Source of the DNA: Anaerolineales bacterium
GTDB taxonomy: Bacteria; Chloroflexota; Anaerolineae; Anaerolineales; Anaerolineaceae
Direction of reading: 5' to 3'
Assembly: GCA_038206515.1 (NCBI GenBank)
Contig: JBBRAT010000001.1
Span: 40,089-104,088, forward strand
DNA length: 64,000 nucleotides
Numbering within the stretch: the stretch's first letter is position 1; every line of letters starts with the position of its first letter. The position numbers and the translations under genes were made by a program. Of the stretch, positions 1,187 through 62,134 are shown one piece after another. The notes beneath the pieces were generated by a model that worked only from the letters and a program-made list of their open reading frames with translations, was not told the origin of the DNA and ran no database searches.

Positions 1187-1258
1187 TGTGATATCGGAAA
1201 GAGCCTGTAATCCACGTCCAGGAAGAATCTCAACATCATTGATAGCAATACCTACAGC

Positions 1259-1336
1259 AATACCTTCGCAAAAAAACATTCCTGTAGAGGTAGGGTTTGC
1301 CTTACTCCTACAGGAATGTTTTTTTGCGAAGGTATT
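1259..1336. terminator. Bidirectional rho-independent terminator between convergent genes: a perfect 29-bp stem with a 20-nt loop, containing A7/T7 runs.
   Basis: aataccttcgcaaaaaaacattcctgtag ... ctacaggaatgtttttttgcgaaggtatt are exact reverse complements. It lies between the permease (+, ends 1186) and the kinase (-, ends 1347). Confidence 0.6.
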
Positions 1337-1346
1337 GTACTGGATG

Positions 1347-2345: not shown

Positions 2346-2565
2346 AGCGCGTCTTCTTTCTTTTCTCTCTTCTGGCTTTTGGGTAAGGCGACTGCCCGCT
2401 TACGAATAGAAAGATGGCGTTCTCCACTCGTGCTGATCTACGGCGTACTACCAGCCTTACCAAAAGGCAAATTATCTGCTATATTATACCTGAACTGCAC
2501 CGTATTTCACGATCAAGGCATAGGTTCGTTGGGGATTGGCGTAGTGATTTATAAGAAGTTATTTT

Positions 2566-2604
2566 CATATTTATTTTTGTCGTTCCGCGACAAAAATAAA
2601 TATG
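2566..2604. promoter_or_regulatory. Perfect AT-rich palindrome with 17-nt arms (catatttatttttgtcg ttccg cgacaaaaataaatatg) in the divergent kinase/FHA-regulator intergenic region. Candidate operator.
   Basis: Exact inverted repeat seen in the sequence. Located 40 nt upstream of the FHA-wHTH gene start and about 220 nt upstream of the kinase start. Confidence 0.4.
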
Positions 2605-2646
2605 AAAAAGAATTTTAGAATAGGCTTATTCTTGGGAGGGTGAGAG

Positions 2647-4157: not shown

Positions 4158-5507
4158 CTACTTCTTCAGGTTATTTTCCATGGAGAAGCGCACCGCCGAG
4201 CGATAGACGCTCTGTAGTTGTTGCGCCATCTCTTTTTGCCCTTGTCCCTCCAGTTGGCTGACCAATTGGGAGAGCAGTTCCAAGAATTTTGGGGTCACGT
4301 CATCGGCGTGGGATTGCAAAATTTCTTTTCGCGCGGCTTCATCTTCTGCGCCCATTAATTCTTCCGCTAAATCCAACTCGGCAGGCGGGGTGGATGCGCG
4401 TTGAATGACCTCTACCACTTTTTGCAACTTTTCCATGCGAGCCATATCGCCTTTGCCGCGCGATTCTTCCAGTTCGGTGCGCAGCGCCTCAGCAAAGAAG
4501 TCATCCATGTTATTAAAGGCTTCGGTGGTGGCTTTTTCCACGTCCTCTGCCGTCAGGATTTGTTCCAGCAGCTTACGTGAAGCATCCAGCTGTTCTTTGA
4601 CACGCTTATCAATTTCTTCGATCAGCTTCAGCATGTGATCACGCAAGGTGGCGAGCTTTTCTTGTTCTTCGCCGGTCGCGGTGTCAACCCGCGTGGTGAG
4701 GACGTTGAAGAATTCATCATCCATACCCGAACGCGCCATGCTAATCATGGTGGTCAGCTGGGTCTCGCTGGGCGCGGAGATCATCAAGTCCAACAGTTTT
4801 TCACGGGTCAAGCCGCTTTCGCTGGCGGCTTGCAAAGATTTCACGGCTGTCTGCACATCCTGCGATTGCGCTTGCAGCTTGCGCCCAATTTCAGTCAGGG
4901 GCAAAATCTCTTGTTGGAGGGCAGCCAGGGCGCGGGCGGTGTTTTCATCGCCACTTTGGGAAGAGGCTTCAATGACGCGGTTCATAATTTCAAAGAAACG
5001 CTCATCGATCAGTTTTTCATCCTGGCGGATGATGTCCTGGCGCACTTCCGCGCTGGATGCGGTAATTAATCGCTGAAGAAGGTTCAGGCGCGCCTGAGAG
5101 GCTTCCATCATTTCGCGGGTGATGCCTTCGCCTTCCAGCACTTTGTCCATCATCAGCTGCAAGGTGAACATGGTCTGCGGGCGCAGCAGGTAGGCTTTGC
5201 GTTTTTCGGGGGGCAGAGCATTCAGCACCTTGGTAATCATGGGACCAATCAGGCGTTCCTGCTCGTTAACCGGCAGACCCAGGTCGGGTGGGAAGTAGGT
5301 CAACAGCAGTTCTTTCTCAGGGTCATGGTAGACGATCGGGGTACTGAGCGGGCCCTGATAGCCGCAATGAGGACAATTGGCAACGTTGGAGTTGCCGGAA
5401 AGAAAGCGCTGCTTGGCGCTTGGGTCTGCGCCGACATCAAATAACTGTTCCATCTCCGCCACAATGGGCTGTCGGCAACGTGGGCAACTGATCTGAACTT
5501 TAGCCAT
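4158..5507 (-). CDS. CpXC-domain protein: an N-terminal double CxxC zinc ribbon followed by a long helical region.
   Basis: N-terminal SCPRCRQ ... CPHCGY pair with CpXC-like spacing. The remaining 380 aa are acidic/helical and low-complexity. Confidence 0.55.
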   Translation of the reverse strand: MAKVQISCPRCRQPIVAEMEQLFDVGADPSAKQRFLSGNSNVANCPHCGYQGPLSTPIVYHDPEKELLLTYFPPDLGLPVNEQERLIGPMITKVLNALPPEKRKAYLLRPQTMFTLQLMMDKVLEGEGITREMMEASQARLNLLQRLITASSAEVRQDIIRQDEKLIDERFFEIMNRVIEASSQSGDENTARALAALQQEILPLTEIGRKLQAQSQDVQTAVKSLQAASESGLTREKLLDLMISAPSETQLTTMISMARSGMDDEFFNVLTTRVDTATGEEQEKLATLRDHMLKLIEEIDKRVKEQLDASRKLLEQILTAEDVEKATTEAFNNMDDFFAEALRTELEESRGKGDMARMEKLQKVVEVIQRASTPPAELDLAEELMGAEDEAARKEILQSHADDVTPKFLELLSQLVSQLEGQGQKEMAQQLQSVYRSAVRFSMENNLKK

Positions 5508-5560: not shown

Positions 5561-7306
5561 TTATACTACCGCTTTTGGGGGTTGCACCCCGGCAGCGACT
5601 GGCAAAGAAAAGCAAATATTCGCGCCCTTGCCGGGAGCATTATCCACCCAAATACGCCCATCATGGGCTTCGATGAGGGCGCGCGCCAGGTAAAGCCCCA
5701 GTCCTGCGCCTTTGGTTTGCTTTGCCATTTCGGGGGCGCGGTAGAATCGGTCAAAAATGTGTGGAATATCCTGCGGGGCGATGCCTGGACCTTCATCGCT
5801 GACGCAGATAATCACATTATCACCGCGCGCCTGCCCGCTGATGCGAATTTCTCCGCCAGGGGCATATTTGATGGCGTTATTCACCAGGTTCGAAAGCACC
5901 TGCTCCAGCCGGACTTCATCCGCCAGGACGATGGGGAACTCGGGCGGAAAATCCACCACCAAAGTATGGCGGGTGGTCTGGATTTGCAAACGATTTGCCA
6001 CGCGCCTTGCCAGTGCATCCAACGCCAGGTCTGCTCGTTTGATGGCGAGCGCGCCAGCTTGCAGGCGAGAGGCGTCCAACAGGTTTTCAATCATGCCAGT
6101 CAGGCGATCCGCTTCTTCTTCGATAATCGCCAAGCTTTCCTGCACCATTTTGCCATCCCAATGGGCATCTTCCAGGCGCAGGGTGCTGACGTAGCCTTTA
6201 ATCAAGGCGACCGGCGTTTTCAACTCGTGGCTGATGATGGAAATAAACGTACCTTTTAGCTCATCCGCCTGCCGGAAGCGGGTAATATCGCGAACAGTGG
6301 CGACAATATTCAACAGCTTGCCATCTGGGGTCAGCAGGGGTGTATATGCCACGCCAACGGGCAAGGGCGGACGTTTTTCGCGCTTCAGGTCGCCTTCTAC
6401 GTAAAGATGCGCATGTGGGGTGAGGGGCCAGCCGCCTGATTCGGCTTGTTCCAGGGTCATGCCCTGGGGGTGACGATCCCACTGCATAAGTTGTTCATGG
6501 GGCTTGCCCTGAATTTGCTCCATCGGTAGCCCCACCAGGCGGGTAAAAGCCGGGTTACAGCGTTCGACCAGGTTGTCCGCGTTCAGGATAATGACTCCAT
6601 CTGCAAGTGAATCAAGCAGGGCATTCACCCGCTCCTTTTCGTGATTCACTTGCGCGTATAGCTGGGCGTTTTGTACGGCAATGGCTGCCTGGTTGGCAAA
6701 GCTGTTGAGCAGGGCGTAATCATTGGAGGAAAAGACGCCCGAATAGCTGCGGAAGACAAACAGCAGCCCCACCACCTTCTGCCGGGCGATTAGCGGCAGT
6801 CCGATGCTGGTGGGCAGGGATAAGCCGATGCTGTGGGTTAAATCATTGAGCAGGCGATTAATTTCAGAGAGTTCAAAGTGATCGGGGTTAACATCATCAG
6901 GGATTTGTTGCAGCAGGGTTTCGACCAGCTTGACGAACGGCTTTGGCATGTGATGAGAAACCACCACTTGCCAGGTATTGGCTTCAGAGCGCAGGGCGAT
7001 GAGACCGGCTTGCCCCGCCAGCATTTCAACCGCGATTTTTAAAATGCGCTCCAGGAGCTTATCCAGGTCAAGCTCTTGGGTGAGCGCGCGAGCAATTTCC
7101 AGAAGGTAATCACGCTGACGAATGCGAAAGTCAGGTAGCATCAAACTTTGCCCCCGATCTTTGTAAACGGCTGAAAGATTCTTAGCTGAAGGAACATCTT
7201 GACATCGTCGTTTCCTCAGGCATCGCTGCATTTGTAGTGGCTTCCAGCAGAGAGCCTGACAATGATCAGACAATTTCTGTTTTGCAGAGAATTGCTTGAA
7301 TATCAC
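5561..7306 (-). CDS. Sensor histidine kinase with GAF and PAS sensory domains (HisKA + HATPase_c). The real start is probably near 7145 (MLPDFRIRQ...).
   Basis: H-box SHELKTP. N, G1 and G2 boxes (NLVNNAIKYA, DEGPGI, GAGLGLYLA). The upstream 50 codons of the ORF overlap repeat element A and are probably not coding. Confidence 0.85.
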   Translation of the reverse strand: MIFKQFSAKQKLSDHCQALCWKPLQMQRCLRKRRCQDVPSAKNLSAVYKDRGQSLMLPDFRIRQRDYLLEIARALTQELDLDKLLERILKIAVEMLAGQAGLIALRSEANTWQVVVSHHMPKPFVKLVETLLQQIPDDVNPDHFELSEINRLLNDLTHSIGLSLPTSIGLPLIARQKVVGLLFVFRSYSGVFSSNDYALLNSFANQAAIAVQNAQLYAQVNHEKERVNALLDSLADGVIILNADNLVERCNPAFTRLVGLPMEQIQGKPHEQLMQWDRHPQGMTLEQAESGGWPLTPHAHLYVEGDLKREKRPPLPVGVAYTPLLTPDGKLLNIVATVRDITRFRQADELKGTFISIISHELKTPVALIKGYVSTLRLEDAHWDGKMVQESLAIIEEEADRLTGMIENLLDASRLQAGALAIKRADLALDALARRVANRLQIQTTRHTLVVDFPPEFPIVLADEVRLEQVLSNLVNNAIKYAPGGEIRISGQARGDNVIICVSDEGPGIAPQDIPHIFDRFYRAPEMAKQTKGAGLGLYLARALIEAHDGRIWVDNAPGKGANICFSLPVAAGVQPPKAVV

Positions 7307-7335
7307 CAGGTTCTCTGCTGGAAGCCACTACAAAG
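7231..7335. repeat. Copy A of a roughly 105-nt structured intergenic element: a 28-bp outer stem (tttgtagtggcttccagcagagagcctg / caggttctctgctggaagccactacaaag) enclosing a conserved about 50-nt core.
   Basis: About 80% identical to copy B at 19288-19390. The stems differ by compensatory changes. Lies between the ROK kinase and the histidine kinase. Confidence 0.5.
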
Positions 7336-7356: not shown

Positions 7357-8319
7357 TCAATCGGAGAATGCTATTTTTTTGAGCGAGGTATGCGCCAATG
7401 CCAGGGCGCCGAGCAGACCAGCGTCATCCCCCAAAGCTGCGGTGGTAACCACCAGCCCCTGCATATATTCGGGGGAGATAACCGTTTCGGCGATGGCGAC
7501 ACGCATTGGGTCGAGTAAGAAGTGACCGCTGCGTGATACGCCGCCGCCAATGATAATAATGGTTGGGTTGAACAAGTGCAAATAATCCCCCACGGCGCGA
7601 CCGATGTAACCGCCAGCGCGCGCGAATGCCGACTGCGCCAGCTGATCGCCCTGTTCGGCGGCGATGCTAATATCTAACCCAGTGGGGTTTGCCAGCTCGG
7701 AGAGAGACGAGGGGACGCCTTGCGCCAGTTGTTCTTTGACAAAGCGACCAATGGCCGTGCCGGAAGCGTAAGCCTCCAGATGCCCACGATGACCGCAGCC
7801 ACACATGGGACCATCTGGTGAAACGGTGACATGCCCCATTTCAGCCGCCAAGCCGTGCGAGCCAAGCAGCAGCCGGTCGTCAACGATGACGCCACCGCCG
7901 ATACCCGTGCTGATGGTCAGGTAGATCAGGTCGTGATGACCTTGCCCTGCGCCGTAATACCACTCACCCAAAGCAGCCAGGTTTGCGTCATTGCCCAGAA
8001 AAACGGGGACTTGAAATCGCTCGTTAAGAATCTGAACAATGGGCAGCCGTTCCCAGCCAGGGATGTTTGGAGCAACGTAAATGATCCCCAATTGGGGGTT
8101 GCTTGGCCCCGGTGTGGCAACTGCAATGGCGCGCACAGTGTCATTGGCGGGCCAAATTTCGGCAATCAGATCGATTAATCGCTCCAGCGGTGACCCGCTT
8201 TTGCCCTGTGTGGGAACTCGCTTCTGTTTGGAAGGACGAGTTTCCTCGGCTGGATAAACAGCCGCGCGTATTTGGGTTCCCCCAATGTCAATGGCGATGA
8301 TTGTGTCCATACAAGTCAA
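7357..8319 (-). CDS. ROK-family sugar kinase (glucokinase-like).
   Basis: N-terminal IAIDIGGTQIR ATP-binding motif. ROK zinc motif CGCGHRGHLE. Family-typical ...GLGGGVI... pattern. Confidence 0.85.
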   Translation of the reverse strand: MTCMDTIIAIDIGGTQIRAAVYPAEETRPSKQKRVPTQGKSGSPLERLIDLIAEIWPANDTVRAIAVATPGPSNPQLGIIYVAPNIPGWERLPIVQILNERFQVPVFLGNDANLAALGEWYYGAGQGHHDLIYLTISTGIGGGVIVDDRLLLGSHGLAAEMGHVTVSPDGPMCGCGHRGHLEAYASGTAIGRFVKEQLAQGVPSSLSELANPTGLDISIAAEQGDQLAQSAFARAGGYIGRAVGDYLHLFNPTIIIIGGGVSRSGHFLLDPMRVAIAETVISPEYMQGLVVTTAALGDDAGLLGALALAHTSLKKIAFSD

Positions 8320-12233: not shown

Positions 12234-12288
12234 CTGGGATTCTGGTAGATGAAAATTGTGGCGCAATTTTCATCTACCAGAATCCCAG
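12234..12288. repeat. Perfect 25-bp stem / 5-nt loop hairpin (ctgggattctggtagatgaaaattg tggcg caattttcatctaccagaatcccag) with no T-tract.
   Basis: Exact reverse-complement arms. Located between the pgk terminator and the rpsT promoter. The six-frame ORFs that overlap it are artefacts of the symmetry. Confidence 0.5.
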
Positions 12289-14697: not shown

Positions 14698-16020
14698 ATG
14701 ACCCCCATCAAAACCCTAATTATGGGCGCAGCCGGAAGAGACTTCCATAATTTCAACGTTTTCTTCCGTAATAACCCGAATTACAATGTGGTTGCGTTTA
14801 CCGCTACCCAGATTCCCAATATTGACGGGCGCAAATATCCCGCGCAGCTCGCTGGGGAACTCTACCCGGCGGGTATCCCCATTTACCCTGAAAGCGACCT
14901 GGAACGCCTGATTAAGGAGAATCAGATTGACCAGGTGGTCTTTGCTTACAGTGACGTGCCGAATGAATATGTGATGCACCGAGGCTCGGCGGTCATGGCT
15001 GCCGGGGCTGACTTTGTGCTGATGGGCATGCGACACACCCAGATTAAATCCACCAAGCCGGTGGTTTCGGTTTGCGCAGTGCGTACCGGCTCGGGCAAGA
15101 GTCAGACCACCCGGCGCGTCTCGCTGATCCTGCGCGAGATGGGCTACCGCGTGGCTGCTATCCGTCACCCCATGCCGTATGGCGACCTGGTGGCTCAGAA
15201 GGTGCAGCGTTTCGCCACCTATGCCGACCTGGATAAGCACGAATGCACCATCGAAGAGCGCGAAGAGTACGAACCGCATATTGATAACGGCGTGATCGTG
15301 TATGCCGGCGTGGATTACGAAGCCATTTTGCGTCAGGCTGAACAGGAAGTAGATATTGTCCTGTGGGATGGCGGCAACAATGACTTCTCCTTCTACCAGT
15401 CGGACCTGGCAATTGTGGTGGTAGACCCGCACCGCCCCGGTCACGAGCGATCTTATCACCCTGGTGAAACCAACGTGCGCTCGGCGGATGTGTTCGTCAT
15501 CAACAAAGTGGATACCGCTAACCCGGAGAGCGTGATGGCTGTGCGCGAATCCATCAGCGCATTGAACCCGAACGCGGTGATCATTGAGGCTGCCTCGCCT
15601 TTGTTCGTGGATGACCCGGCTGCCATTCGTGGCAAGCGCGTGTTGGTTATCGAAGACGGTCCTACCCTGACGCATGGCGAAATGACCTATGGCGCGGGGT
15701 GGGTGGCTGCGCGCCGCTTTGGTGCAGCTGAAATTGTGGATCCGCGCGCCTTTGCCGTTGGCAGCATTGCCGCGACCTACGCGAAATATCCTAAGACGGG
15801 CGCAATCCTGCCGGCGATGGGCTATGGCGATGAGATGGTGCACGACCTGGAAACCACGATCAATAATTCTGATGTAGACCTGGTGCTTTCAGGCACGCCG
15901 ATTGACCTGACGCGCATTATCAAGGTTAACAAACCCATGCAGCGCGTCCGTTATGAACTGCAAGAGATTGGCAAGCCAGATTTAGAAGATATTCTGAAGG
16001 CAAAGTTCGGCAAGAAGTAA
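14698..16020 (+). CDS. P-loop NTPase-family protein resembling cyclic 2,3-diphosphoglycerate synthetase (cpgS-like). Start taken at MTPIK (RBS AGGAG). The six-frame ORF extends upstream into argS.
   Basis: Walker A-like CAVRTGSGKSQTT in mid-protein. N-terminal LIMGAAGRDFHNFN. Overall architecture recalled from cpgS-like proteins. The family assignment is from memory, not a search. Confidence 0.55.
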   Translation: MTPIKTLIMGAAGRDFHNFNVFFRNNPNYNVVAFTATQIPNIDGRKYPAQLAGELYPAGIPIYPESDLERLIKENQIDQVVFAYSDVPNEYVMHRGSAVMAAGADFVLMGMRHTQIKSTKPVVSVCAVRTGSGKSQTTRRVSLILREMGYRVAAIRHPMPYGDLVAQKVQRFATYADLDKHECTIEEREEYEPHIDNGVIVYAGVDYEAILRQAEQEVDIVLWDGGNNDFSFYQSDLAIVVVDPHRPGHERSYHPGETNVRSADVFVINKVDTANPESVMAVRESISALNPNAVIIEAASPLFVDDPAAIRGKRVLVIEDGPTLTHGEMTYGAGWVAARRFGAAEIVDPRAFAVGSIAATYAKYPKTGAILPAMGYGDEMVHDLETTINNSDVDLVLSGTPIDLTRIIKVNKPMQRVRYELQEIGKPDLEDILKAKFGKK

Positions 16021-16140
16021 GGAAATTTTGCGTCTTTGGTTCATCAGGTGTAATGGGTTAGAGTAAATTCACTCTAACCCACTACACCGCTTTTCCGGGG
16101 GCGCAAAGCTGCCGTTGGAGGGGGACAAGGAAGGGTTGTT

Positions 16141-18513: not shown

Positions 18514-19239
18514 ATGGCACGCAACGTTCCTTCGATCAACCCAAACCGCACGTACCGCTGGTTACCCCTGGTGACGGCAATTTTCGTCACCACGCTGATC
18601 TTATCCAATATCATCGCCGTCAAGCTGGTACAGATTTTCACGCTGACCTTGCCCGCGGCGGTGGTTCTCTTTCCGATTGCCTATATCTTCGGCGATGTAC
18701 TGACCGAAGTGTATGGTTTTGCCCAGGCGCGCCGCGTCATCTGGACGGGCTTTTTCTGCAACCTGCTGGCGGTCATCGCCATTTGGGTGGCGGGGATGCT
18801 ACCGGCAGCGTCCTTTTGGTCGGCGGGCGTTTTCACCAGCGCGGTGGATGCGCAGCACGCTTATGATGCCATCCTGGGCTTCACGCCGCGCTTGCTGTTG
18901 GCTTCCTTCCTGGCGTATTTGGTGGGAGAATTCCTCAACTCCTTCGTGCTGGCAAAGCTAAAGGTGCAGACGCAGGGGCGTTACCTGTGGGTGCGCACCA
19001 TTGGCTCCACCCTGGTTGGCGAAGGGGCAGATTCGCTGGTGTTCATCAGCATTGCCTTCTTTGGCATTTTACCCAACGGCGCTTTGCTGACCGCCATTCT
19101 CTCGCAATGGCTGTTCAAAGTAGGCTATGAGGTATTGGCAACCCCGCTGACGTATTGGGTGGTCAACGCCCTCAAGCGCGCCGAGGGGGAAGATTATTAC
19201 GACCGCAACACCGATTTTAGCCCGGTCGCTTTCCGCTAA
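18514..19239 (+). CDS. Queuosine-precursor transporter of the YhhQ/Vut_1 (DUF165) family.
   Basis: Six or seven transmembrane helices, PIAYIFGDVLTEVYG family motif. Adjacent to queF, which is a conserved functional linkage. Confidence 0.8.
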   Translation: MARNVPSINPNRTYRWLPLVTAIFVTTLILSNIIAVKLVQIFTLTLPAAVVLFPIAYIFGDVLTEVYGFAQARRVIWTGFFCNLLAVIAIWVAGMLPAASFWSAGVFTSAVDAQHAYDAILGFTPRLLLASFLAYLVGEFLNSFVLAKLKVQTQGRYLWVRTIGSTLVGEGADSLVFISIAFFGILPNGALLTAILSQWLFKVGYEVLATPLTYWVVNALKRAEGEDYYDRNTDFSPVAFR

Positions 19240-19287
19240 GTCTGAATTTATGCTTGGATGGTACGGTTTAGTCTTTCCTTTTCCGCG

Positions 19288-19390
19288 TAGTAGTTTCCGG
19301 CAGGAAGCCTGACAATCATCAAATAATTTCCGTTTCGCAGGGAGAATTGCTTGAATGCCATCAGGCTTCCTGCCAGAAGCCACTACAAAG
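19288..19390. repeat. Copy B of the structured intergenic element (outer stem ttccggcaggaagcctga / tcaggcttcctgccagaa, conserved core). In the 3' region of the yhhQ-like gene, before its terminator.
   Basis: About 80% identical to copy A (7231-7335). Compensatory stem changes against copy A. Terminal motif gaagccactacaaag is shared. Confidence 0.5.
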
Positions 19391-19417
19391 ATGCAATACA
19401 CCCAAGTGTTGCAGTAG

Positions 19418-19452
19418 GATGCCCTTTTCGTTTGAGAAGGGCATCTTTTTTT
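19418..19452 (+). terminator. Rho-independent terminator (gatgcccttttc...gaagggcatc + TTTTTTT).
   Basis: Hairpin plus a 7-T run, reaching the convergent thioesterase stop codon. Confidence 0.6.
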
Positions 19453-32642: not shown

Positions 32643-33329
32643 ATGACCAATAATCCGTTTGAACTGTTGAGGGTTGCCCCGGATACCGCTTTCGATGGGC
32701 TTCAGAATGCTTATCAATTGTGCCGCGCAAAGGCGATTGCCGAACAGGCTAACGATGAGACCTTACGAACGATTGATGAAGCATACCGCGCTGCGCTCGA
32801 AAGTTTATCTCAACGACAGGCATCTACCCATTTATCTGTCTTACCTACGCAGGCGGTAGCAGTGTATAACCCGCCCATGCAGCCCAAATCCTCTGCCTAT
32901 AATCCAACTGAGCTGCTCTCGCAGGCGCTTAAAGAACAGGTTAGTCCATCTACTTTTGCAACGATTGATTGCCCAAACTGTGGAATCCCTAACCCTGCTC
33001 AGGTTACCGTTTGTCAGCAATGCGGCAGCCAAATTAGTCGCACTTGCACAGTCTGCGCCGCGCAGATCCCCTTATATGCGTCTGTTTGCCAGCGTTGTGG
33101 CGCGCCGGTGAATGAAGTTGCAAAAAATAAGGCTCTTCAGGCAAATGATGCATCTCAGAAAATTGAACAAGAACGCTTTGAAGAAAATGAGCGTATCCTC
33201 CGCCATGAGCAGCGTCATGCTACGCGCGCTGTTTATGGGACCGTTTTCTGGCTAGTGGTTACTGTTGCCTTAGTAGCCCTTTGCGGATTGGCTTTGTTTG
33301 CGTATTGGTCTGCCTCGCAGTTGAGATGA
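32643..33329 (+). CDS. Membrane-anchored protein with a degenerate J-like N-terminal helical domain, a double zinc ribbon and a C-terminal transmembrane helix.
   Basis: NPFELLRV...AYQLCRAKA (weak J-like). CPNCG...CQQCG and CTVCA...CQRCG ribbons. C-terminal transmembrane helix. Its stop overlaps the next start (ATGA). Confidence 0.55.
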   Translation: MTNNPFELLRVAPDTAFDGLQNAYQLCRAKAIAEQANDETLRTIDEAYRAALESLSQRQASTHLSVLPTQAVAVYNPPMQPKSSAYNPTELLSQALKEQVSPSTFATIDCPNCGIPNPAQVTVCQQCGSQISRTCTVCAAQIPLYASVCQRCGAPVNEVAKNKALQANDASQKIEQERFEENERILRHEQRHATRAVYGTVFWLVVTVALVALCGLALFAYWSASQLR

Positions 33330-34144
33330 CTCAGGAAACAGACTCTCAGTCTCGTTCGGATTTAACGGCTTGCCCCAATTGTGGCAACATGAACCGCCCG
33401 AATGTGCTGATTTGCCCAGCTTGTGGGGTGCGCGTTGACCTCTTTGAGAGCGCCCAAGAAGCCTTGGATGCTAAAAGTCAGGCAGTTCAGGTGCAGCGCC
33501 GGGCGGTATTTGCTGAAACTGCCACCAAAGAGGAAGAGGAAGAGCAGCAAAACGTGCGCCGGAAGCTGTGGCGTTTCTGGCTTCCCATCGTGTTATTGGC
33601 TACAGGCTTGTTAGCTTTACCCATCTGGTTGTTTGCTTCCAATGCCGGCGCCAGTGAGCGGCAGAAGAAAGAAATGCTTCAATCGCTTTTGCTGAAAGCG
33701 GAAGATTGTATCAAAGCACAAGATTTTTCCTGTGCCAGGGATACCTATACTGAACTCATCCAGTTAGACCCACTCAATGAGGTTGCCAGGAAGGGATTAT
33801 GGTCAGCGCAAGTGGGGTTGGCTCGGGATTTGGCAAAGAAAGGGCAAATTGATGGAGCGATTGAGGCGCTAACCCCAGCGCGCAAAGCCACGCCCCAAGA
33901 TGAGGCGTTGATTGACCTGGAAGTATCACTTCGGGGTCAGAAAGCGAATCAGCTCGCGCGTAAAGGGGATTGGCGCGCCGCGATTGATATGCAGTCTGCC
34001 GCATTAGAGCTTAAACCCAATGACTCAGGTGTGCGTAACCAAATTCGCACGTTTTTCGACCAGTGGATTGTTTTTGAACGCGCCAAGGGGAATATTACCC
34101 AGGCGGTGATGTTGCAAATCGAAAAGAAAGCAAGATTCCCATAA
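33326..34144 (+). CDS. Zinc-ribbon / transmembrane / TPR-like repeat protein.
   Basis: CPNCGNMNRPNVLICPACG ribbon, an acidic stretch, a transmembrane helix (WLPIVLLATGLLALPIWLF), then helical TPR-like repeats. Confidence 0.55.
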   Translation: MTQETDSQSRSDLTACPNCGNMNRPNVLICPACGVRVDLFESAQEALDAKSQAVQVQRRAVFAETATKEEEEEQQNVRRKLWRFWLPIVLLATGLLALPIWLFASNAGASERQKKEMLQSLLLKAEDCIKAQDFSCARDTYTELIQLDPLNEVARKGLWSAQVGLARDLAKKGQIDGAIEALTPARKATPQDEALIDLEVSLRGQKANQLARKGDWRAAIDMQSAALELKPNDSGVRNQIRTFFDQWIVFERAKGNITQAVMLQIEKKARFP

Positions 34145-34212
34145 AAATCGGGGAATGACGGAGTTAAACGGAATTTCGCACTATTGTTTAATACGATTAT
34201 GTTTGAGGAGAA

Positions 34213-35172
34213 ATGATTATGGCAAATTATTATGAACTGCTTCAGGTTCCACCGACTTCCAGCCCCCAAGAAATTGAGGTCTCTCTTGATCGCTTATATA
34301 ACGAAACGCGCCGTAAGGTGACTAATTTTGATCCGCAAATTGCAACCCAGGCGAATCAGGCGCTCCAATTGCTGGAGCAAATGCGCTCAATTCTTCTTTC
34401 GCCGGATAAGCGCAATGCTTATGATACGGCCTTGGGGATTGGCGCAAATGCGGGTGGATTGGTAGACCCCGAAGCGATATTCCGTTCCCCCGCTCCTCCT
34501 GCTGGGCCTGTATTAGGCATGCCAACGGTTGGGATGCAATTCGGGCAACCCATGCCCCAATCCCAGGTAGCGCAGCCCGCAGTCCGCACGGATGCGTGGA
34601 CTTGCCCAACCTGTCACCATCCGAACCTTGTGGGGGCGCAATTCTGTGCGAAAGATGGGGTGAAGATTGGTCATCCTTGCCCCAAGTGTGAACAGATGGC
34701 TGAATTGGCAAATAATTTTTGCCCCGCCTGTGGAGCTGACAAACGGAAGGTGTACGAACAAAAACAACAAGCAGAAATTGAGAAATTGCATGTAAGAATC
34801 AATGGCATCAATGCGCAAATAGAACAGATTCGCAAAGTTGCCAGCCTCAGTTCAAGTGGAAGCCTGCGAGGGGCAGATTTGACCGTTTATAAAGAGCTAC
34901 GTCAGGGGAGCAGTTCGGGATGTGCCTGGATGGTCGCGATTATATTATTTATTACCATCTCGGCAGTTTTCACTAGCATGGGGGCTGCTCAAATCTTTTA
35001 TATCCTTTTTGCTCTTGGGATTTCTGCTCTCGTAGGATGGTTCGTCTATTCGAGTGGCAAAAAATCGCATATAGATACTCAGGCAAAAAAGCGCATCAGT
35101 GAGTTGCAAAGCCAGCTTCCTGGGCTTCAACAGCAAATCAGCGAAGTACAGTCGCACCAATACCCCAATTAA
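34213..35172 (+). CDS. J-domain-like protein with HPD replaced by FDP, plus a double zinc ribbon, a coiled coil and two C-terminal transmembrane helices.
   Basis: NYYELLQV...SPQEIEVSLDRLYNETRRKV TNFDPQ ...ALQLLEQMRSILLSPDKRNAYD aligns with the canonical J domain (DYYEILGV...YHPDKN...AYEVLSDPEKRAAYD), with the catalytic HPD lost. CPTCHH...CAKDG and CPKCE...CPACG ribbons. Confidence 0.7.
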   Translation: MIMANYYELLQVPPTSSPQEIEVSLDRLYNETRRKVTNFDPQIATQANQALQLLEQMRSILLSPDKRNAYDTALGIGANAGGLVDPEAIFRSPAPPAGPVLGMPTVGMQFGQPMPQSQVAQPAVRTDAWTCPTCHHPNLVGAQFCAKDGVKIGHPCPKCEQMAELANNFCPACGADKRKVYEQKQQAEIEKLHVRINGINAQIEQIRKVASLSSSGSLRGADLTVYKELRQGSSSGCAWMVAIILFITISAVFTSMGAAQIFYILFALGISALVGWFVYSSGKKSHIDTQAKKRISELQSQLPGLQQQISEVQSHQYPN

Positions 35173-35184
35173 CAGGACAATTCC

Positions 35185-36594
35185 ATGCCCAATTACTATG
35201 AGACCCTCCACGTTATTCCAACTGCAACTGCGCAAGAGATTGAGCCCGTTATCGATCGGTTATATAACGAGACGCGCCGCAAAGTAACCAATTTCGATCC
35301 ACAAGTTGCGGCGCAAGCCAATCAGGCTTTGCTGGTATTGGAACAAATGCGGACGACCTTGCTTAATCCGCAATTGCGCGCTGAATATGATAAAACTTTA
35401 GACTTGAATATGCAGATGGGAGGGCTGCTTGACCCAGACTCTCCTCCGGTAGCTATTCCCTCAGCCTCCTCATTGGGAATGCCTTCTGGTAATATGGCCT
35501 TTGGGTCAATCTCCGCCGGAACATCGCAGGGAAGACAGTCCCCGCAGGTTGCCCCTCAGGGGATCATTGCACCCAAAACAACCTGGACTTGTCCCCAATG
35601 CCATGTTGAAAATCCGCCGCAAACGCTTTTCTGTAAGAGCTGTGGGGGCGAAGTGGGTTTAACTTGCCCTAAATGTCATAAAACCTATGAGGTAGCCACT
35701 ACTCAGTTTTGTTCAAGCTGCGGTAGCCACCTTGCGACTGAGGTACACCGCAAAAGACTTCAGGACCGCCTCTCCCTGGCTGAAAATGATTTACAGACCA
35801 CTCAGGCAACAGATCCAAGACGAGATAACGAACTCAGTCTGTTACGAGCTGCCATTTTGCAGTCTTTTGCCTGGGTAGCTCTCTTGATTGTCTTTCGGTT
35901 GATTGGCATCCCAATCTTAAATGCACTTAGGGTTAGGTTGGATACTACTGATATTTTTGTAGGAAATGGCATGCGCTATGCTGCCCTATGGGGTGGTTTA
36001 GCGGTAGTTACGATTGCTTTTGCCATACTCCTTCGGGCGCGATGGACAGCAGCGTGGGGCGCGCTGTTTGCCGCCTTCCTATGGGGATCAACGAGTCTCT
36101 TTCTCTTTCTGGAAGCCTATTACAATAATTCGTATAGCGATACATCCTATGGCTACTCGGGCTATCGAGATGTACAGCTTGGGGTTGCTGTTCTTCTCTT
36201 GCTCGTTGACCTCGTTTTAGCTGCGCAACCACGCAAATTCGCCAAATCTTTTACGGAATGGATTAACAAGCCAAAAGGAATCGTGACGATTTCGCATGTA
36301 TTTGGCTGGATTTTTGCTTTAATCGTGGCTGCTCAAATGGGGACATGGCTATCTCCGTACTATTTCCGCTTGGGTGATCCGCTCGGCATTTACATGATAA
36401 CTACATTTCTGCACACGGGAATCTATTGTGTATTGGGTGTGATTCTGTTGTGGCAAGGTGTTTTTGGCTTGGGCATTGTGAATAAAGTGAATAATCAGGT
36501 GCGGAATGCCTTGCTTACTCAGACGCAACGCATCAAGGAATTAACGAGTGAGGTAGAAAGCCTGAAACAGGACTTGACGCATATATCGCGCTAA
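35185..36594 (+). CDS. Paralogous J-like (FDP instead of HPD) zinc-ribbon protein with a multi-spanning membrane C-terminal half.
   Basis: NYYETLHV...AQEIEPVIDRLYNETRRKVTNFDPQ...LRAEYD. CPQCH...CKSCGG and CPKCH...CSSCGS ribbons. At least six transmembrane helices. Confidence 0.7.
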   Translation: MPNYYETLHVIPTATAQEIEPVIDRLYNETRRKVTNFDPQVAAQANQALLVLEQMRTTLLNPQLRAEYDKTLDLNMQMGGLLDPDSPPVAIPSASSLGMPSGNMAFGSISAGTSQGRQSPQVAPQGIIAPKTTWTCPQCHVENPPQTLFCKSCGGEVGLTCPKCHKTYEVATTQFCSSCGSHLATEVHRKRLQDRLSLAENDLQTTQATDPRRDNELSLLRAAILQSFAWVALLIVFRLIGIPILNALRVRLDTTDIFVGNGMRYAALWGGLAVVTIAFAILLRARWTAAWGALFAAFLWGSTSLFLFLEAYYNNSYSDTSYGYSGYRDVQLGVAVLLLLVDLVLAAQPRKFAKSFTEWINKPKGIVTISHVFGWIFALIVAAQMGTWLSPYYFRLGDPLGIYMITTFLHTGIYCVLGVILLWQGVFGLGIVNKVNNQVRNALLTQTQRIKELTSEVESLKQDLTHISR

Positions 36595-46121: not shown

Positions 46122-46151
46122 CTTGCCTACTTTCTCAATCTCTTCATTTTG

Positions 46152-46230
46152 ATTCTGTGTGGATTGTAGTGGTTAAGAGAGGCGATCTTCCCTTCTTAAC
46201 CACTACAATCCACACAGAATCCTCTTTATT
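46152..46230 (+). terminator. Rho-independent terminator: perfect 26-bp stem (attctgtgtggattgtagtggttaag) with a 17-nt loop and a following T-rich tract.
   Basis: Exact inverted repeat immediately after the regulator stop. Shares the 9-mer ttgtagtgg/ccactacaa with elements A and B. Confidence 0.6.
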
Positions 46231-46515: not shown

Positions 46516-48117
46516 TTGAATACCAAATGGATTTCGTATTTGACTTTGTTCTTTTTGCTTATCGTGGTTGTCCCTCATGTAGAAGCAAAGCAAGATGAGA
46601 AATTGCCTCAACTGCAAATGAGCGAATTTGTAACGAACATTAGCCCGCATGATTTTTCTGCCTGCGGGTTGACGAATTTAGGAAATGTGTATTGTTGGGG
46701 AATGGATTTTAATTATGTTGACCACAACACGCCGTATTTTGTTTCTGGGTTAGGCGTTTCTACCCAAATTGCCGTGGGAACTGGGTACGCCTGCGCATTG
46801 GGCGCGGATGGCAAAGTACGTTGCTGGGGAAATAACAATGACGCGCAGCTAGGGCGTGATCCTTCCCAAACTTTGCGTTCGGATACGCCATTAGAGGTGC
46901 CGGGTATTTCTCAGGTGAAGGCGATTGCGGTGGGGAATAATCACAGTTGCGCGGTAAAAATAGATGGTTCTTTGTATTGTTGGGGAAATAACCAGTATGG
47001 GAAAGTAGGTACGGGAAATACCCATCTGCAAATTGCACCTTATAAGGTCACTTTCCCTGAAGCGGTAAAAGATGTGGTTGCCAGTAAATATAATACTTGC
47101 GCCCTGTCAGATGTTATCGGAAGGGTTTACTGCTGGGGAAATAATGCAGTTGGGCAAGTAGGCATTGGTTTTAGCTCTCAGGAAGCATCGTTGCTGCCCC
47201 AAGGCGTAAGCATCGCTGGCATTAAAAAGTTAGTGATGGATGAAGCCCATGTATGCGCTATTACCATCGCGAACGGGGTGTTATGCTGGGGCGGAAATTA
47301 TGCCGGGGAGCTTGGGCATGACCCTAAGTTGGATGAATTCCCTGACCCCGGTTCCCCAAGTAAGCAAGATAATATCATTCCAATTCCGGTAGATATTGGC
47401 GCAGGGTTGGTGTTGGATGTCTCTACGGGGCATCAATTTACGTGTTACGTTATGCTGGGGGGTGGGGTACGCTGCCTGGGTAATAATAATGGCTCGTTAG
47501 GCACTTTGGGGAACGGGGGATACCTGATTTACACCTACCAACCGGTGCGTGTTTACAATATTCGTGGCGGCATGGCAAAACTGGTCTCTAGTGAAGGCAA
47601 TACGTATGCGATTACGAGCAGCGGCAGTATTTATTGTTGGGGGAGCTGCTATCGGGGGGATGGTTCTGTGCGCAGCGACCATACCACCCCTATCCACTTT
47701 ACGGGGATGCTCGGGGTTCCTTCTTTAGGCTCGAATTACCTCGATGGGCAGGATGGCAGCATCTTTTCAATTTCTGGGCAGGGCTTTGGGGATAACCTGG
47801 ATGTGGGATTGACAGCCAATAGTAATGTATTATCGCCAGATATGAAGATCAAAACGTCCAGCGAAGGACAGTTTACTTTTGATCTTAATCTTTTTGGCAC
47901 TTCTGGCTTGGCACATCATATGACAGCGCATAAAGATGGGAGTTATCGAATTATGATGACGGTTGGAGGACAATCTGCCAGCGTAATCTTGAAAGTTTCA
48001 GCTCTTGCCCCTAAACGGGCATTGGAAGAGCCAGCGTCATCCGTTATGCTCATCCTTCCAACATTTGTAAACCCGCTCTCTGATATTTCTGTCTTCTTAC
48101 CCTTTGCTTATAAATAA
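46516..48117 (+). CDS. Secreted RCC1-like repeat (beta-propeller) protein. TTG start, RBS AAGAGGAGG.
   Basis: Signal peptide. At least six repeats of the (V/L)YCWGNN..GQ(L/V)G type (RCC1/BLIP-II signature). Confidence 0.85.
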   Translation: MNTKWISYLTLFFLLIVVVPHVEAKQDEKLPQLQMSEFVTNISPHDFSACGLTNLGNVYCWGMDFNYVDHNTPYFVSGLGVSTQIAVGTGYACALGADGKVRCWGNNNDAQLGRDPSQTLRSDTPLEVPGISQVKAIAVGNNHSCAVKIDGSLYCWGNNQYGKVGTGNTHLQIAPYKVTFPEAVKDVVASKYNTCALSDVIGRVYCWGNNAVGQVGIGFSSQEASLLPQGVSIAGIKKLVMDEAHVCAITIANGVLCWGGNYAGELGHDPKLDEFPDPGSPSKQDNIIPIPVDIGAGLVLDVSTGHQFTCYVMLGGGVRCLGNNNGSLGTLGNGGYLIYTYQPVRVYNIRGGMAKLVSSEGNTYAITSSGSIYCWGSCYRGDGSVRSDHTTPIHFTGMLGVPSLGSNYLDGQDGSIFSISGQGFGDNLDVGLTANSNVLSPDMKIKTSSEGQFTFDLNLFGTSGLAHHMTAHKDGSYRIMMTVGGQSASVILKVSALAPKRALEEPASSVMLILPTFVNPLSDISVFLPFAYK

Positions 48118-58038: not shown

Positions 58039-58092
58039 GTAGGTAGGAATAGAGGAGCGGGATGACCATCCCGCTCCTCTATTCCTACCTAC
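58039..58092. terminator. Perfect 24-bp stem / 6-nt loop hairpin between the convergent REC gene and feoA (bidirectional terminator candidate).
   Basis: gtaggtaggaatagaggagcggga tgacca tcccgctcctctattcctacctac are exact reverse complements. Confidence 0.6.
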
Positions 58093-60596: not shown

Positions 60597-61082
60597 TTAT
60601 TTTTCCTCACAAGTCTTGCATACCCCATAAAAAATCAGGCTGGCGCTTTCGATATGCCCGCCAAATTGTTGTTGATAGGCTGCCTTGATGGTTTCTACGC
60701 CTGGGTTCATAAATTCAAAAATTTGATTGCAAACGCGGCAGCGAAAGTGTGAATGATCTATATTCTCCGGGTTTACCGGGTCGAAACGTTCCTGATGATG
60801 TTCGTCATCAAACCAGCGTGGCGAGACCAAGCCTTCTTCTGCCAGCCAGCGCATGGTGCGATACACCGTAGAAAGGTGGAGAGAGTTATCTTGCTGGTGG
60901 GCGCGCTTGAAAATATCTTCCGCAGTGGGGTGATCTTCACATTCAGACAGCGACTCGATAATGAGGCGGCGCTGGGTGGTCATGCGCCCACCCTGATTGC
61001 GCAGGCGGTTGGTGGCGAGGGTAAGTAAAGTAGGTTCAAGGATCATTTTGGTCTCTTTATTGCGAGAGATTTGCAATAACAA
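60597..61082 (-). CDS. fur: Fur-family metalloregulator, immediately upstream of feoB.
   Basis: Fur wHTH (RMTTQRRLIIESL...HPTAEDIF). Metal-site motifs (HHQ, HSHFRCRVC, CxxC at the C-terminus). Confidence 0.9.
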   Translation of the reverse strand: MLLQISRNKETKMILEPTLLTLATNRLRNQGGRMTTQRRLIIESLSECEDHPTAEDIFKRAHQQDNSLHLSTVYRTMRWLAEEGLVSPRWFDDEHHQERFDPVNPENIDHSHFRCRVCNQIFEFMNPGVETIKAAYQQQFGGHIESASLIFYGVCKTCEEK

Positions 61083-61393
61083 TTCGCATTCATTTTATTC
61101 TAAATTTAGGGTTAACTAAAGTGACATTTGTCTTTTCCCCATCCCCTGAATGTCACCCGATCCGCTTTCTCTCTCCCCAAATGCTCATCATTGTCAGGTA
61201 TCCCAATTTGTGTAGCGGCGCACTGCGTGCGCCATCGATGGATAAGGATTATCGTATTCATGCGAGCAAAATAACCCGCATCAGCTTAGGTGCACGCAGC
61301 GCGCCGCTACACAAATCGGGATGCCTGCACAGGCGCTATTGTTTTATAATGTAAGGCGATGAAAAATCAGTGTAGAGAGCGGGTCTGGCAGCA

Positions 61394-62134
61394 ATGGCGC
61401 AAAAGAAAAATTATTATGTAGTGCGGAAAGGGCGCAAGCCGGGCATTTATCCCCTGTGGGAGGGCAGTCAGGGGGCGAAGGCACAGGTGGATGGCTTTAC
61501 CGGCGCGCAGTTTCGCGGATTTGCCACTTTGCCCGAAGCCGAAGCCTACCTGGCAGGCAAAGAGCTTGCGCCGGCTGCGTCATCTTATCCCCCTCCATTG
61601 CTTATTGGAACGGAAACGCAGGCTGACTTAACTGTACCTGAAGTAGACCCAGATACGATTGTCATCTTTACGGATGGCGCCTGTTCCGGCAACCCGGGTC
61701 CAGGGGGATATGGGGCGATTGTTCGTATGGATGGGAAGGAAATGGAGCTTTCAGGCGGATTTGGCTGTACGACCAATAACCGCATGGAGATGATGGCTTG
61801 CATTATGGCGTTGCAAAGTATTAAGCAGCCCAGTAAAGTTTCGCTCTACAGTGATTCAAGTTACGTGGTGAATGCCGTTCAAAAAGGGTGGGCAAAACGT
61901 TGGAAGGCAAATGCCTGGGTGCGTACTCAGACCAAAGCGGGTGAAAAACAAATGGCTGAAAATAGCGACCTGTGGCAAAAAATGCTTGACGTGCTGGTCA
62001 TCCATCAGGTGACTTTCTTTTGGGTGCGCGGACATGCTCATCACCCTGAAAATGAACGCTGTGACCGGTTGGCGGTGGCGGCTTCTCTGCAAATGGGGTT
62101 GCCCACTGACCCAGGCTTTACGCGCAGATGTTAA
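61394..62134 (+). CDS. rnhA: Ribonuclease HI with an N-terminal Cauli_VI-type dsRNA/hybrid-binding domain.
   Basis: N-terminal YYVVRKGRKPGIY...W (dsRHbd). RNase H catalytic residues in IFTDGACSGNPGPGGYG, MEMMA, YSDSSYV, WVRGHAHHPENERCDRLA. Confidence 0.9.
   Translation: MAQKKNYYVVRKGRKPGIYPLWEGSQGAKAQVDGFTGAQFRGFATLPEAEAYLAGKELAPAASSYPPPLLIGTETQADLTVPEVDPDTIVIFTDGACSGNPGPGGYGAIVRMDGKEMELSGGFGCTTNNRMEMMACIMALQSIKQPSKVSLYSDSSYVVNAVQKGWAKRWKANAWVRTQTKAGEKQMAENSDLWQKMLDVLVIHQVTFFWVRGHAHHPENERCDRLAVAASLQMGLPTDPGFTRRC

What the first reader, a model, noticed from the sequence alone, without database searches (positions are those of the whole stretch)
7231..7335. Structured roughly 105-nt intergenic element present in two copies, with compensatory stem changes (second copy at 19288-19390)
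Copies A and B share a conserved core (cctgacaatNatcaNaNaatttcNgtttNgcagNgagaattgcttgaatNNcaNcagg) and the terminal motif gaagccactacaaag. Their outer stems of 18-28 bp differ: A has cagcagagag / ctctgctg, B has cggcaggaag / cttcctgcc. Pairing is preserved in both, which is a covariation signature of a selected structure.

Both copies are on the same strand. A lies upstream of a GAF/PAS histidine kinase, antisense to its flanking genes. B lies in the 3' end of the queuosine-precursor transporter gene, before its terminator. It could be a small-RNA or riboregulator family, or a miniature mobile hairpin element.
Basis: seen in the sequence. Interest (0 to 1): 0.72.

Follow-up and report, generated by a model that had tools for sequence, protein, structure and literature searches.

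The report
GTAG-tagged palindromic intergenic repeat (REPIN-like)
The two 105-base hairpins are real copies of a small palindromic DNA repeat that looks like the known REP/REPIN "junk-DNA" hairpins of bacteria, sitting in gene spacers of an uncultured Anaerolineaceae bacterium. They do not look like a dedicated regulatory RNA gene, and the finding is fairly ordinary.

Summary
Copies A (7231-7335) and B (19284/19287-19390) align over about 105 nt (84 of 107 columns identical). Each is a near-perfect long hairpin, and three stem pairs changed on both sides with pairing kept.

Three details were wrong:
- B lies 47 nt after the transporter's stop codon, not inside the gene.
- The "conserved core" is no more conserved than the arms.
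- The "terminal motif" is simply the right arm of the palindrome.

The evidence favours a dispersed palindromic DNA repeat of the GTAG-tagged REP-dimer/REPIN kind:
- The two strands show no consistent folding preference.
- A and B face opposite ways relative to host transcription.
- Neither has its own consensus promoter, and no terminator is assignable to the element alone.
- Homology stops at the hairpin base, with no target-site duplication.
- Every arm starts with GTAG.
- Both lie just downstream of an ORF.
- A syntenic relative has only a 60-nt ROK-kinase spacer without the element.
- A third copy starts a neighbouring contig about 6 kb upstream.

Rfam, plasmid, phage, genome, metagenome, viral and six-frame protein searches found no other relatives. 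Genome-wide copy number and the mobilising enzyme could not be tested. Verdict: new member of a known kind, low to moderate interest.

The parts
7231..7335 (+). Copy A of the palindromic repeat (105 nt). It sits in the 215-nt spacer between the ROK gene (stop at 7357, minus strand) and the GAF/PAS histidine kinase gene (start 7141, minus strand).
   Evidence: (I2). The kinase start codon is fixed by alignment with relative L019.
7231..7258 (+). Copy A left arm. GTAG tag at 7234-7237, within TGTAGTGG at 7233-7240.
   Evidence: Pairs with 7307-7334.
7259..7306 (+). Copy A apical spacer, itself a degenerate palindrome (helix 2 of the consensus fold).
7307..7335 (+). Copy A right arm. CTAC at 7328-7331, which reads GTAG on the minus strand.
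19284..19390 (+). Copy B of the repeat. Homology to A begins at 19287 and the left end is degenerate. It lies 47 nt after the Vut_1/queuosine-precursor-transporter stop codon (19239) and 25 nt before an intrinsic terminator.
   Evidence: (D3, D5, I13).
19287..19312 (+). Copy B left arm. GTAG at 19287-19290. It has three mismatches or wobbles against the right arm.
   Evidence: (I13).
19361..19390 (+). Copy B right arm. CTAC at 19383-19386. Read on the minus strand it is GTAG-T-GGCTTC-TGGCAG-GAAGCC, a REP-like monomer with a perfect 6-bp local stem.
   Evidence: The local palindrome was read directly from the sequence.
19416..19447 (+). Context only, not part of the repeat: an intrinsic terminator (14-bp stem plus T-run) between the convergent Vut_1 and acyl-ACP thioesterase genes.

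Best explanation
A and B, together with a third partial copy about 6 kb upstream of the window, are copies of a roughly 105-bp palindromic dispersed DNA repeat. They belong to the GTAG-tagged REP-dimer / REPIN kind of miniature non-autonomous mobile DNA, in an uncultured Anaerolineaceae (Chloroflexota) genome.

Anatomy (shown): each copy is two inverted arms of about 28 nt. Each arm begins with (T)GTAG on its own strand. The arms are separated by a spacer of about 48 nt that is itself a degenerate palindrome. Either DNA strand, or an RNA copy of either strand, folds into one long hairpin.

Mechanism (inferred, not shown): the single-stranded DNA hairpin with its GTAG tags is recognised and moved by a HUH/Y1 tyrosine transposase of the RAYT / IS200-IS605 type encoded elsewhere in the genome. 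Insertion leaves no target-site duplication. Copies survive mainly in the tolerant space just downstream of ORFs. The two arms co-evolve because the hairpin is the unit that is copied, or because mismatches are corrected within the hairpin. That would produce the compensatory changes.

Once inserted, the copies are transcribed passively with the neighbouring mRNA: A as the minus strand between ROK and the kinase, B as the plus strand in the Vut_1 3' UTR. They may incidentally stabilise or attenuate those transcripts, but that is not what maintains the family.
For: 1. Palindrome with no consistent strand preference. MFE on the + / - strand is -68.2 / -67.2 for A and -49.2 / -57.9 for B. The ssDNA folds have z-scores of -9.9 and -5.1.
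2. Homology between A and B ends at the hairpin base and the flanks are unrelated.
3. No target-site duplication at either copy for any boundary within +/-6 nt.
4. All four arms, and the partial copy C, carry GTAG/CTAC at the outer end.
5. (T)GTAG is the most enriched k-mer in the arms of the window's 22 independent long hairpins. GTAG occurs in 9 against 1.8 expected (Bonferroni p = 0.03). TGTAG occurs in 6 against 0.42 expected (Bonferroni p = 0.006). TGTAGYGG occurs 8 times against 2.0 expected, reached by 0 of 100 shuffles.
6. Location matches what is reported for REPs. A is 21 nt after the stop codon of the upstream ORF between unidirectional genes. B is 47 nt after a stop codon between convergent genes (PMC3733652).
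7. Lineage-specific presence. In syntenic relative ERZ25039483 (about 75% nucleotide identity) the ROK-kinase spacer is 60 nt with no element, against 215 nt here. In another relative the Vut_1-thioesterase spacer is 91 nt against 211 nt (coordinates only). The covariance model finds nothing in 107 kb of relatives' loci.
8. Third copy. Logan contig L012, the upstream neighbour of the window, begins with gccggaagccactaca, which is the right arm.
9. A and B are in opposite orientation relative to host transcription.
10. Literature. REPs are 20-50-nt palindromes preceded by GTAG (PMC8266576). GTAG REPs are known in Chloroflexi, dimers have 20-100-bp spacers and can fold into one large stem-loop (PMC3733652). 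REPINs are 71-110 bp and show common compensatory changes (PMC3116915).
Against: - Only three copies are documented, all within about 70 kb. Genome-wide copy number is unknown.
- No RAYT or any other transposase is found among 47 window ORFs scanned.
- No further copies turned up in the genome, metagenome or viral pattern scans, in plasmid or phage BLAST, or in six-frame peptide searches.
- A and B are only about 80% identical, lower than typical active REPIN populations.
- The REP-monomer palindrome inside an arm is perfect in only one of four arms.
- In canonical REPs the GTAG is unpaired within the monomer, whereas here GTAG pairs with CTAC in the long hairpin.
- The relatives used for the empty-site test are distant, so absence could also reflect spacer turnover.
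Confidence: 0.55

Rival explanations
1. A classical MITE: an internally deleted insertion sequence whose terminal inverted repeats are bound by a DDE transposase encoded by a full-length IS elsewhere in the genome.
For: - It has inverted termini, a small size of about 105 bp and an intergenic location.
- It is absent at the orthologous site of a relative.
- Copy C lies at a contig break.
Against: - There is no target-site duplication at A or B.
- The palindrome runs through the whole element rather than only the termini.
- The ends carry the GTAG tag typical of REPs.
- No IS or transposase in the window shares the ends.
Confidence: 0.15
2. A selected structured RNA. This could be a cis-acting mRNA element (a 3'-UTR or intercistronic hairpin that stabilises, processes or attenuates the transcript) or a small-RNA gene family, with the covariation reflecting selection on RNA structure.
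For: - The hairpins are very stable.
- Three compensatory pairs are present.
- Both copies lie in regions that are probably transcribed, just downstream of ORFs.
- B is followed 25 nt later by an intrinsic terminator, so a 3'-UTR-derived RNA is conceivable.
Against: - No Rfam family matches at gathering threshold. At E<=1 only generic miRNA-precursor hairpin hits far below threshold appear.
- No sigma-70-like promoter lies at either copy, and A has no terminator.
- Host transcription would produce opposite strands of the element at A and B.
- Neither strand is consistently favoured, and G-U pairs are not concentrated on one strand.
- The element is not conserved at the orthologous loci of relatives.
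- Covariation from two sequences cannot separate RNA selection from DNA-hairpin selection.
Confidence: 0.12
3. Ordinary gene-end hairpins (terminator or 3'-stabiliser type), which are abundant in this genome. Two of them happen to be related through a local duplication or gene conversion rather than transposition.
For: - The window holds about 23 long intergenic hairpins, most of them unique. Several are clearly terminator-like, for example 1258-1337 and 19416-19447.
- Relatives have the same habit.
Against: - A and B have no T-run after the stem on either strand.
- B already has a separate terminator 25 nt downstream.
- A, B and C lie 12 kb and about 13 kb apart with unrelated flanks. That fits dispersal of a discrete unit, not segmental duplication.
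Confidence: 0.06

Closest known systems
[quoted passage not shown] 2013, PMC3733652
   Same: - Two inverted arms, each tagged by GTAG, are separated by a spacer in the 20-100-bp range.
- The whole unit of about 70-110 bp folds into one long hairpin in ssDNA or RNA.
- Compensatory changes occur across the hairpin.
- The location is extragenic, just downstream of ORFs between unidirectional or convergent genes.
- There is no target-site duplication.
- GTAG REPs have already been reported in Chloroflexi (Thermomicrobium roseum).
   Different: - Only 3 copies have been seen, and copy number could not be measured.
- No RAYT gene was seen.
- The copies are only about 80% identical.
- The monomer-level palindrome inside each arm is weak (perfect in 1 of 4 arms).
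- The GTAG tags are themselves base-paired in the long hairpin.
- The host is an Anaerolineaceae, for which I found no description of such repeats.
MITEs of bacteria, such as Correia/NEMIS, RUP and the cyanobacterial Nezha element (named from my own knowledge)
   Same: Small, non-coding, structured and intergenic, with inverted ends. They are often co-transcribed with neighbouring genes.
   Different: Classical MITEs have target-site duplications and ends matching a DDE-transposase IS. Here no TSD is present and no parent IS was seen.
ERIC/IRU elements of Enterobacteriaceae, 127-bp imperfect palindromes (from my own knowledge)
   Same: An imperfect palindrome of about 100-130 bp spans the whole element, in transcribed intergenic regions, with low to moderate copy number.
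   Different: There is no sequence similarity, and Rfam and BLAST searches gave nothing. ERIC elements lack the GTAG tag.

Membership tests
GTAG-tagged REP dimer / REPIN | A conserved GTAG tetranucleotide at one end of each REP unit | tested here: met
   GTAG is at 7234-7237 and 19287-19290. CTAC is at 7328-7331 and 19383-19386. Copy C ends ...GAAGCCACTACA. (T)GTAG is the top enriched k-mer in hairpin arms of the window.
GTAG-tagged REP dimer / REPIN | Each unit is itself a short palindrome (stem 5-13 bp, loop 2-20 nt) next to the tag | tested here: inconclusive
   Read from the sequence, GGCTTC-N6-GAAGCC is a perfect 6-bp stem only in B's right arm. It is 5 of 6 (with a wobble) in B's left arm and A's left arm, and 4 of 6 in A's right arm. 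This could be chance.
GTAG-tagged REP dimer / REPIN | Two units in inverted orientation plus a spacer of 20-100 bp, folding into one long hairpin | tested here: met
   The arms are about 28 nt, the spacer about 48 nt, and the total 105 nt.
GTAG-tagged REP dimer / REPIN | Tens to thousands of copies dispersed in extragenic space | not testable with these tools
   There are 3 copies in about 70 kb. The genome is absent from genome contigs and from the JGI metagenomes. Only window proteins can be used to fetch contigs.
GTAG-tagged REP dimer / REPIN | A cognate RAYT (Y1/HUH transposase) gene, usually flanked by the repeats | not testable with these tools
   None of the 47 window ORFs scanned in Pfam is a transposase.
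GTAG-tagged REP dimer / REPIN | Located mostly downstream of ORFs, between unidirectional or convergent genes | tested here: met
   A is 21 nt after the ROK stop codon (unidirectional genes). B is 47 nt after the Vut_1 stop codon (convergent genes). Copy C lies about 140 nt upstream of a gene start, and its other neighbour is unknown.
Classical MITE (DDE transposase) | Target-site duplication flanking the element | tested here: not met
   No direct repeat of 4 nt or more was found for any boundary within +/-6 nt. Only two 3-nt chance matches appeared at A and none at B.
Classical MITE (DDE transposase) | Terminal inverted repeats shared with an autonomous IS | not testable with these tools
   Inverted ends exist, but no IS or other occurrence of the end motif is present in the window.
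Known RNA family (Rfam 15) | A match at or above a family's gathering score | tested here: not met
   One search gave 0 hits. One search gave only sub-threshold generic hairpin (miRNA precursor) hits, for example 29.9 bits against a gathering score of 92 at 7233-7332.
Independent small-RNA gene | Its own promoter and terminator, with consistent orientation relative to the flanking transcription | tested here: not met
   No consensus promoter lies at either copy, and A has no terminator. Relative to host transcription the two copies are in opposite orientation. The promoter scan covers only sigma-70-type consensus.
Intrinsic terminator | A G+C-rich hairpin directly followed by a T-run | tested here: not met
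   Neither copy is called as a terminator. The terminator near B is a separate hairpin at 19416-19447.

The most novel reading that the evidence does not exclude
This Anaerolineaceae lineage may carry a previously undescribed REP-like system. In it, (T)GTAG-tagged hairpins with many different, mostly single-copy stems populate the ends of genes and double as terminator or stabiliser hairpins. The A/B/C family would be the only recently amplified member. Alternatively, the A/B hairpin may be a genuinely selected RNA structure. Either reading would extend REP/RAYT biology, or structured-RNA families, to Anaerolineae and link selfish hairpins to transcript-end formation.
Probability: 0.12. Interest if true: 0.55.

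Novelty: new member of a known kind. Interest (0 to 1): 0.3.

Why it matters
If correct, it adds an Anaerolineaceae example to the GTAG-tagged REP/REPIN superfamily. That superfamily is documented mainly in Proteobacteria and Cyanobacteria, with one Chloroflexi case.

It is also a caution for covariation-based RNA discovery. Compensatory changes in a two-copy palindrome do not by themselves indicate an RNA gene.

The practical value is modest:
- It explains contig breaks in assemblies of this organism.
- It flags hairpins that may affect the 3' ends of the ROK and Vut_1 transcripts.

Tried and rejected
Searches that found no further copies:
- Genome-contig scan with AGAATTGCTTGAATNNCANCAG: 10 loci, all chance matches limited to the pattern.
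- Metagenome-contig scan with GAGAATTGCTTGAATNNCANCAGG: 3 chance hits.
- Two viral-contig scans, one for the core and one for the arm: 33 loci, all chance.
- blastn against plasmids and phages: no match.
- A concatenated query of all open six-frame peptides of A and B against 5.8 billion proteins: nothing at E<=10.
- The open-frame peptide of B against 1.84 billion representatives: two unrelated repeat proteins.

Attempts to reach more of the genome:
- Walking by exact-protein look-ups gave only L012 on the left. Three proteins near the right end of the window were not on record.

Readings considered and rejected:
- The covariance model R1 picks up other long hairpins in the window at 24-30 bits. 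These are generic hairpin scores, not family members.
- No tRNA genes are in the window, so a tRNA-associated element was not pursued.
- attC site: the ends lack the RYYYAAC/GTTRRRY motifs (by eye; motif from my own knowledge).
- IHF site in the spacer: no WATCAANNNNTTR match in both copies (by eye; motif from my own knowledge).
- Promoter inside the element: nothing convincing (by eye).

Full report
**Observation**

Reading the sequence and aligning the two regions confirms two same-strand copies of an element of about 105 nt. A is at 7231-7335 and B at 19284-19390, with homology to A starting at 19287. Of 107 aligned columns, 84 are identical.

Each copy is a nearly perfect long hairpin:
- As RNA, A folds at -68.2 kcal/mol (z = -11.1) and B at -49.2 (z = -6.6).
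- As ssDNA, the z-scores are -9.9 and -5.1.
- The reverse strands fold comparably (-67.2 and -57.9), so neither strand is consistently favoured.

RNAalifold gives 34 consensus pairs. Three changed on both sides with pairing kept: columns 16:91, 21:86 and 22:85. Given 8 left-arm and 6 right-arm differences among 29 positions, three or more compensatory double changes have a probability of about 0.01. With two sequences the built-in shuffle control cannot reach significance (53/500).

No further copy exists in the window.

- B is not inside the transporter gene. The Vut_1 ORF ends at 19239, and B lies 47 nt downstream and 25 nt upstream of a separate intrinsic terminator at 19416-19447.
- The 'conserved core' is not more conserved than the arms: 10 of 50 against 13 of 57 differing columns.
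- The 'terminal motif' is simply the right arm of the palindrome.

**Context**

The window comes from an uncultured Anaerolineaceae-like Chloroflexota genome. The nearest Vut_1 and ROK homologues are 77-79% identical, many are labelled Anaerolineaceae or Chloroflexi MAGs, and Anaerolinea thermophila ROK is about 65% identical.

A lies in the 215-nt spacer between two minus-strand genes:
- ROK, with its stop at 7357. A is 21 nt downstream of it.
- A GAF/PAS histidine kinase, starting at 7141. The start is fixed by alignment with a relative.

B lies between the convergent Vut_1 and acyl-ACP thioesterase genes.

If transcribed with their hosts, A is copied as the minus strand and B as the plus strand of the element. 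Neither has a sigma-70-like promoter, and A has no terminator. Rfam gives nothing at gathering threshold. At E<=1 it gives only generic miRNA-precursor hairpin matches far below threshold.

**Is it mobile or dispersed DNA?**

1. Homology ends exactly at the base of the hairpin and the flanks are unrelated.
2. A third copy exists. The Logan contig that adjoins the window on the left (L012; window position = L012 position - 6251) begins with gccggaagccactaca, the right arm of the element. It then continues into unrelated sequence, so the assembly broke inside a copy about 6.25 kb upstream of the window.
3. Orthologous sites in relatives lack it.
   - In ENA sample ERZ25039483, loci L016 and L019 are syntenic with the window at about 75% nucleotide identity. 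There the ROK-kinase spacer is 60 nt with no element.
   - In the contig of P0002 the Vut_1-thioesterase spacer is 91 nt against 211 nt here (coordinates only).
   - In L055 Vut_1 is followed after 49 nt by another gene.
   - A covariance model built from A and B finds nothing in 107 kb of relatives' loci.
4. There is no target-site duplication at A or B for any boundary choice.

**What kind?**

Every arm starts with GTAG on its own strand. This is TGTAGTGG in three of four arms and in copy C.

This tag is not peculiar to A and B. Among 22 independent long hairpins of the window, counting A/B once:
- GTAG occurs in the arms of 9, against 1.8 expected (Bonferroni p = 0.03).
- TGTAG occurs in 6, against 0.42 expected (Bonferroni p = 0.006).
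- Each is the top-ranked k-mer of its length.
- TGTAGYGG occurs 8 times against 2.0 expected (0 of 100 shuffles reach this). Seven of the eight lie in hairpin arms and the eighth abuts a hairpin.

One of these hairpins, 61195-61327, has arms reading GTAG-C-GGCGCAC-TGC-GTGCGCC. That is a textbook REP monomer, duplicated in inverted orientation around a 55-nt spacer.

The literature defines the following:
- GTAG REPs occur in Proteobacteria, Cyanobacteria, Chloroflexi and the PVC group. They commonly form dimers with 20-100-bp spacers that can fold into one large stem-loop. They are located mostly just downstream of ORFs between unidirectional or convergent genes (PMC3733652).

A and B meet the tag, dimer-hairpin, location, no-TSD and compensatory-change criteria. 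The monomer-level palindrome is weak: GGCTTC-N6-GAAGCC is perfect in only one of four arms.

Copy number and the presence of a RAYT could not be tested.

**Searches for relatives elsewhere**

All were negative:
- Genome, metagenome and viral pattern scans gave only chance matches.
- Plasmid and phage BLAST gave none.
- Six-frame peptides of the element hit nothing in 5.8 billion proteins.
- Against 1.84 billion representatives they hit only two unrelated repeat proteins.

The family therefore appears confined to this little-sampled lineage. This also means its abundance remains unknown.

**Verdict**

The best explanation (confidence about 0.55) is a REP-dimer/REPIN-like palindromic repeat. The sequence features are shown here. 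Mobilisation by a Y1/HUH transposase through an ssDNA hairpin is inferred from the family resemblance.

Rivals:
- Classical DDE-type MITE (0.15). The absent TSD argues against it.
- Selected RNA structure (0.12). Opposite transcriptional orientation, the lack of a consistent strand preference, no own signals and no conservation in relatives argue against it.
- Related gene-end hairpins without transposition (0.06).

The compensatory changes are real, but they are expected for DNA hairpin repeats and do not establish an RNA gene. Novelty: new member of a known kind. Interest is low to moderate.

Noticed in passing
L012:1-16 (about 6.25 kb upstream of window position 1): A third, partial copy (C) of the repeat. 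The neighbouring Logan contig starts with gccggaagccactaca, the right arm, then runs into unrelated sequence about 140 nt upstream of an AAA-family gene. The assembly broke inside the copy.
   Followed up: partly
window 61195-61327: A 133-nt hairpin lies between the divergent Fur-family (60597-61082, minus) and RNase H (61394-62134, plus) genes. Each arm reads GTAG-C-GGCGCAC-TGC-GTGCGCC, a textbook REP monomer, so the whole looks like a REPIN of a different family. It is single copy in the window.
   Followed up: partly
window 1258-1337, 12234-12288, 16047-16088, 46151-46221, 58039-58092: These are long, near-perfect, single-copy intergenic hairpins whose arms carry (T)GTAG / CTAC(A). GTAG and TGTAG are the most enriched 4-mer and 5-mer in hairpin arms of the window. 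46151-46221 shares TTGTAGTGG with copy A.
   Followed up: partly
L016:14880-14942 and 15762-15816; L019:4756-4810 and 4847-4901; L017:19074-19106; L020:15499-15546: Relatives (Anaerolineaceae MAG contigs) also have long intergenic hairpins. Some are GTAG-tagged, for example TTTGTAGT...ACTACAAA in L016. There are small two-copy hairpin families near each other, so hairpin repeats seem to be a habit of the clade.
   Followed up: no
window 2562-2608: A 47-nt perfect AT-rich palindrome (21-bp arms). Both Logan contigs covering this region end here (L012's end and the start of the L001 contig), so it breaks de Bruijn assemblies.
   Followed up: no
window 46819-47162 (within ORF 46516-48117): A direct repeat with a period of about 155 nt falls inside a gene encoding RCC1-like repeats (Pfam RCC1 / WD40_RLD). 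It is a coding repeat and is unrelated to the finding.
   Followed up: yes
L016:10742-14866: In the syntenic relative, a 1374-aa ORF with no Pfam hit on record is inserted between Vut_1 and the thioesterase gene. This is where the window has copy B and the terminator.
   Followed up: no
window 32643-36594: A run of four adjacent ORFs with double-zinc-ribbon (DZR) domains, one of them with a DnaJ domain. They are preceded by Hsp70-like and SPFH genes and followed by a 1015-aa HerA/FtsK-like ATPase. This is an unusual cluster of unknown role.
   Followed up: no
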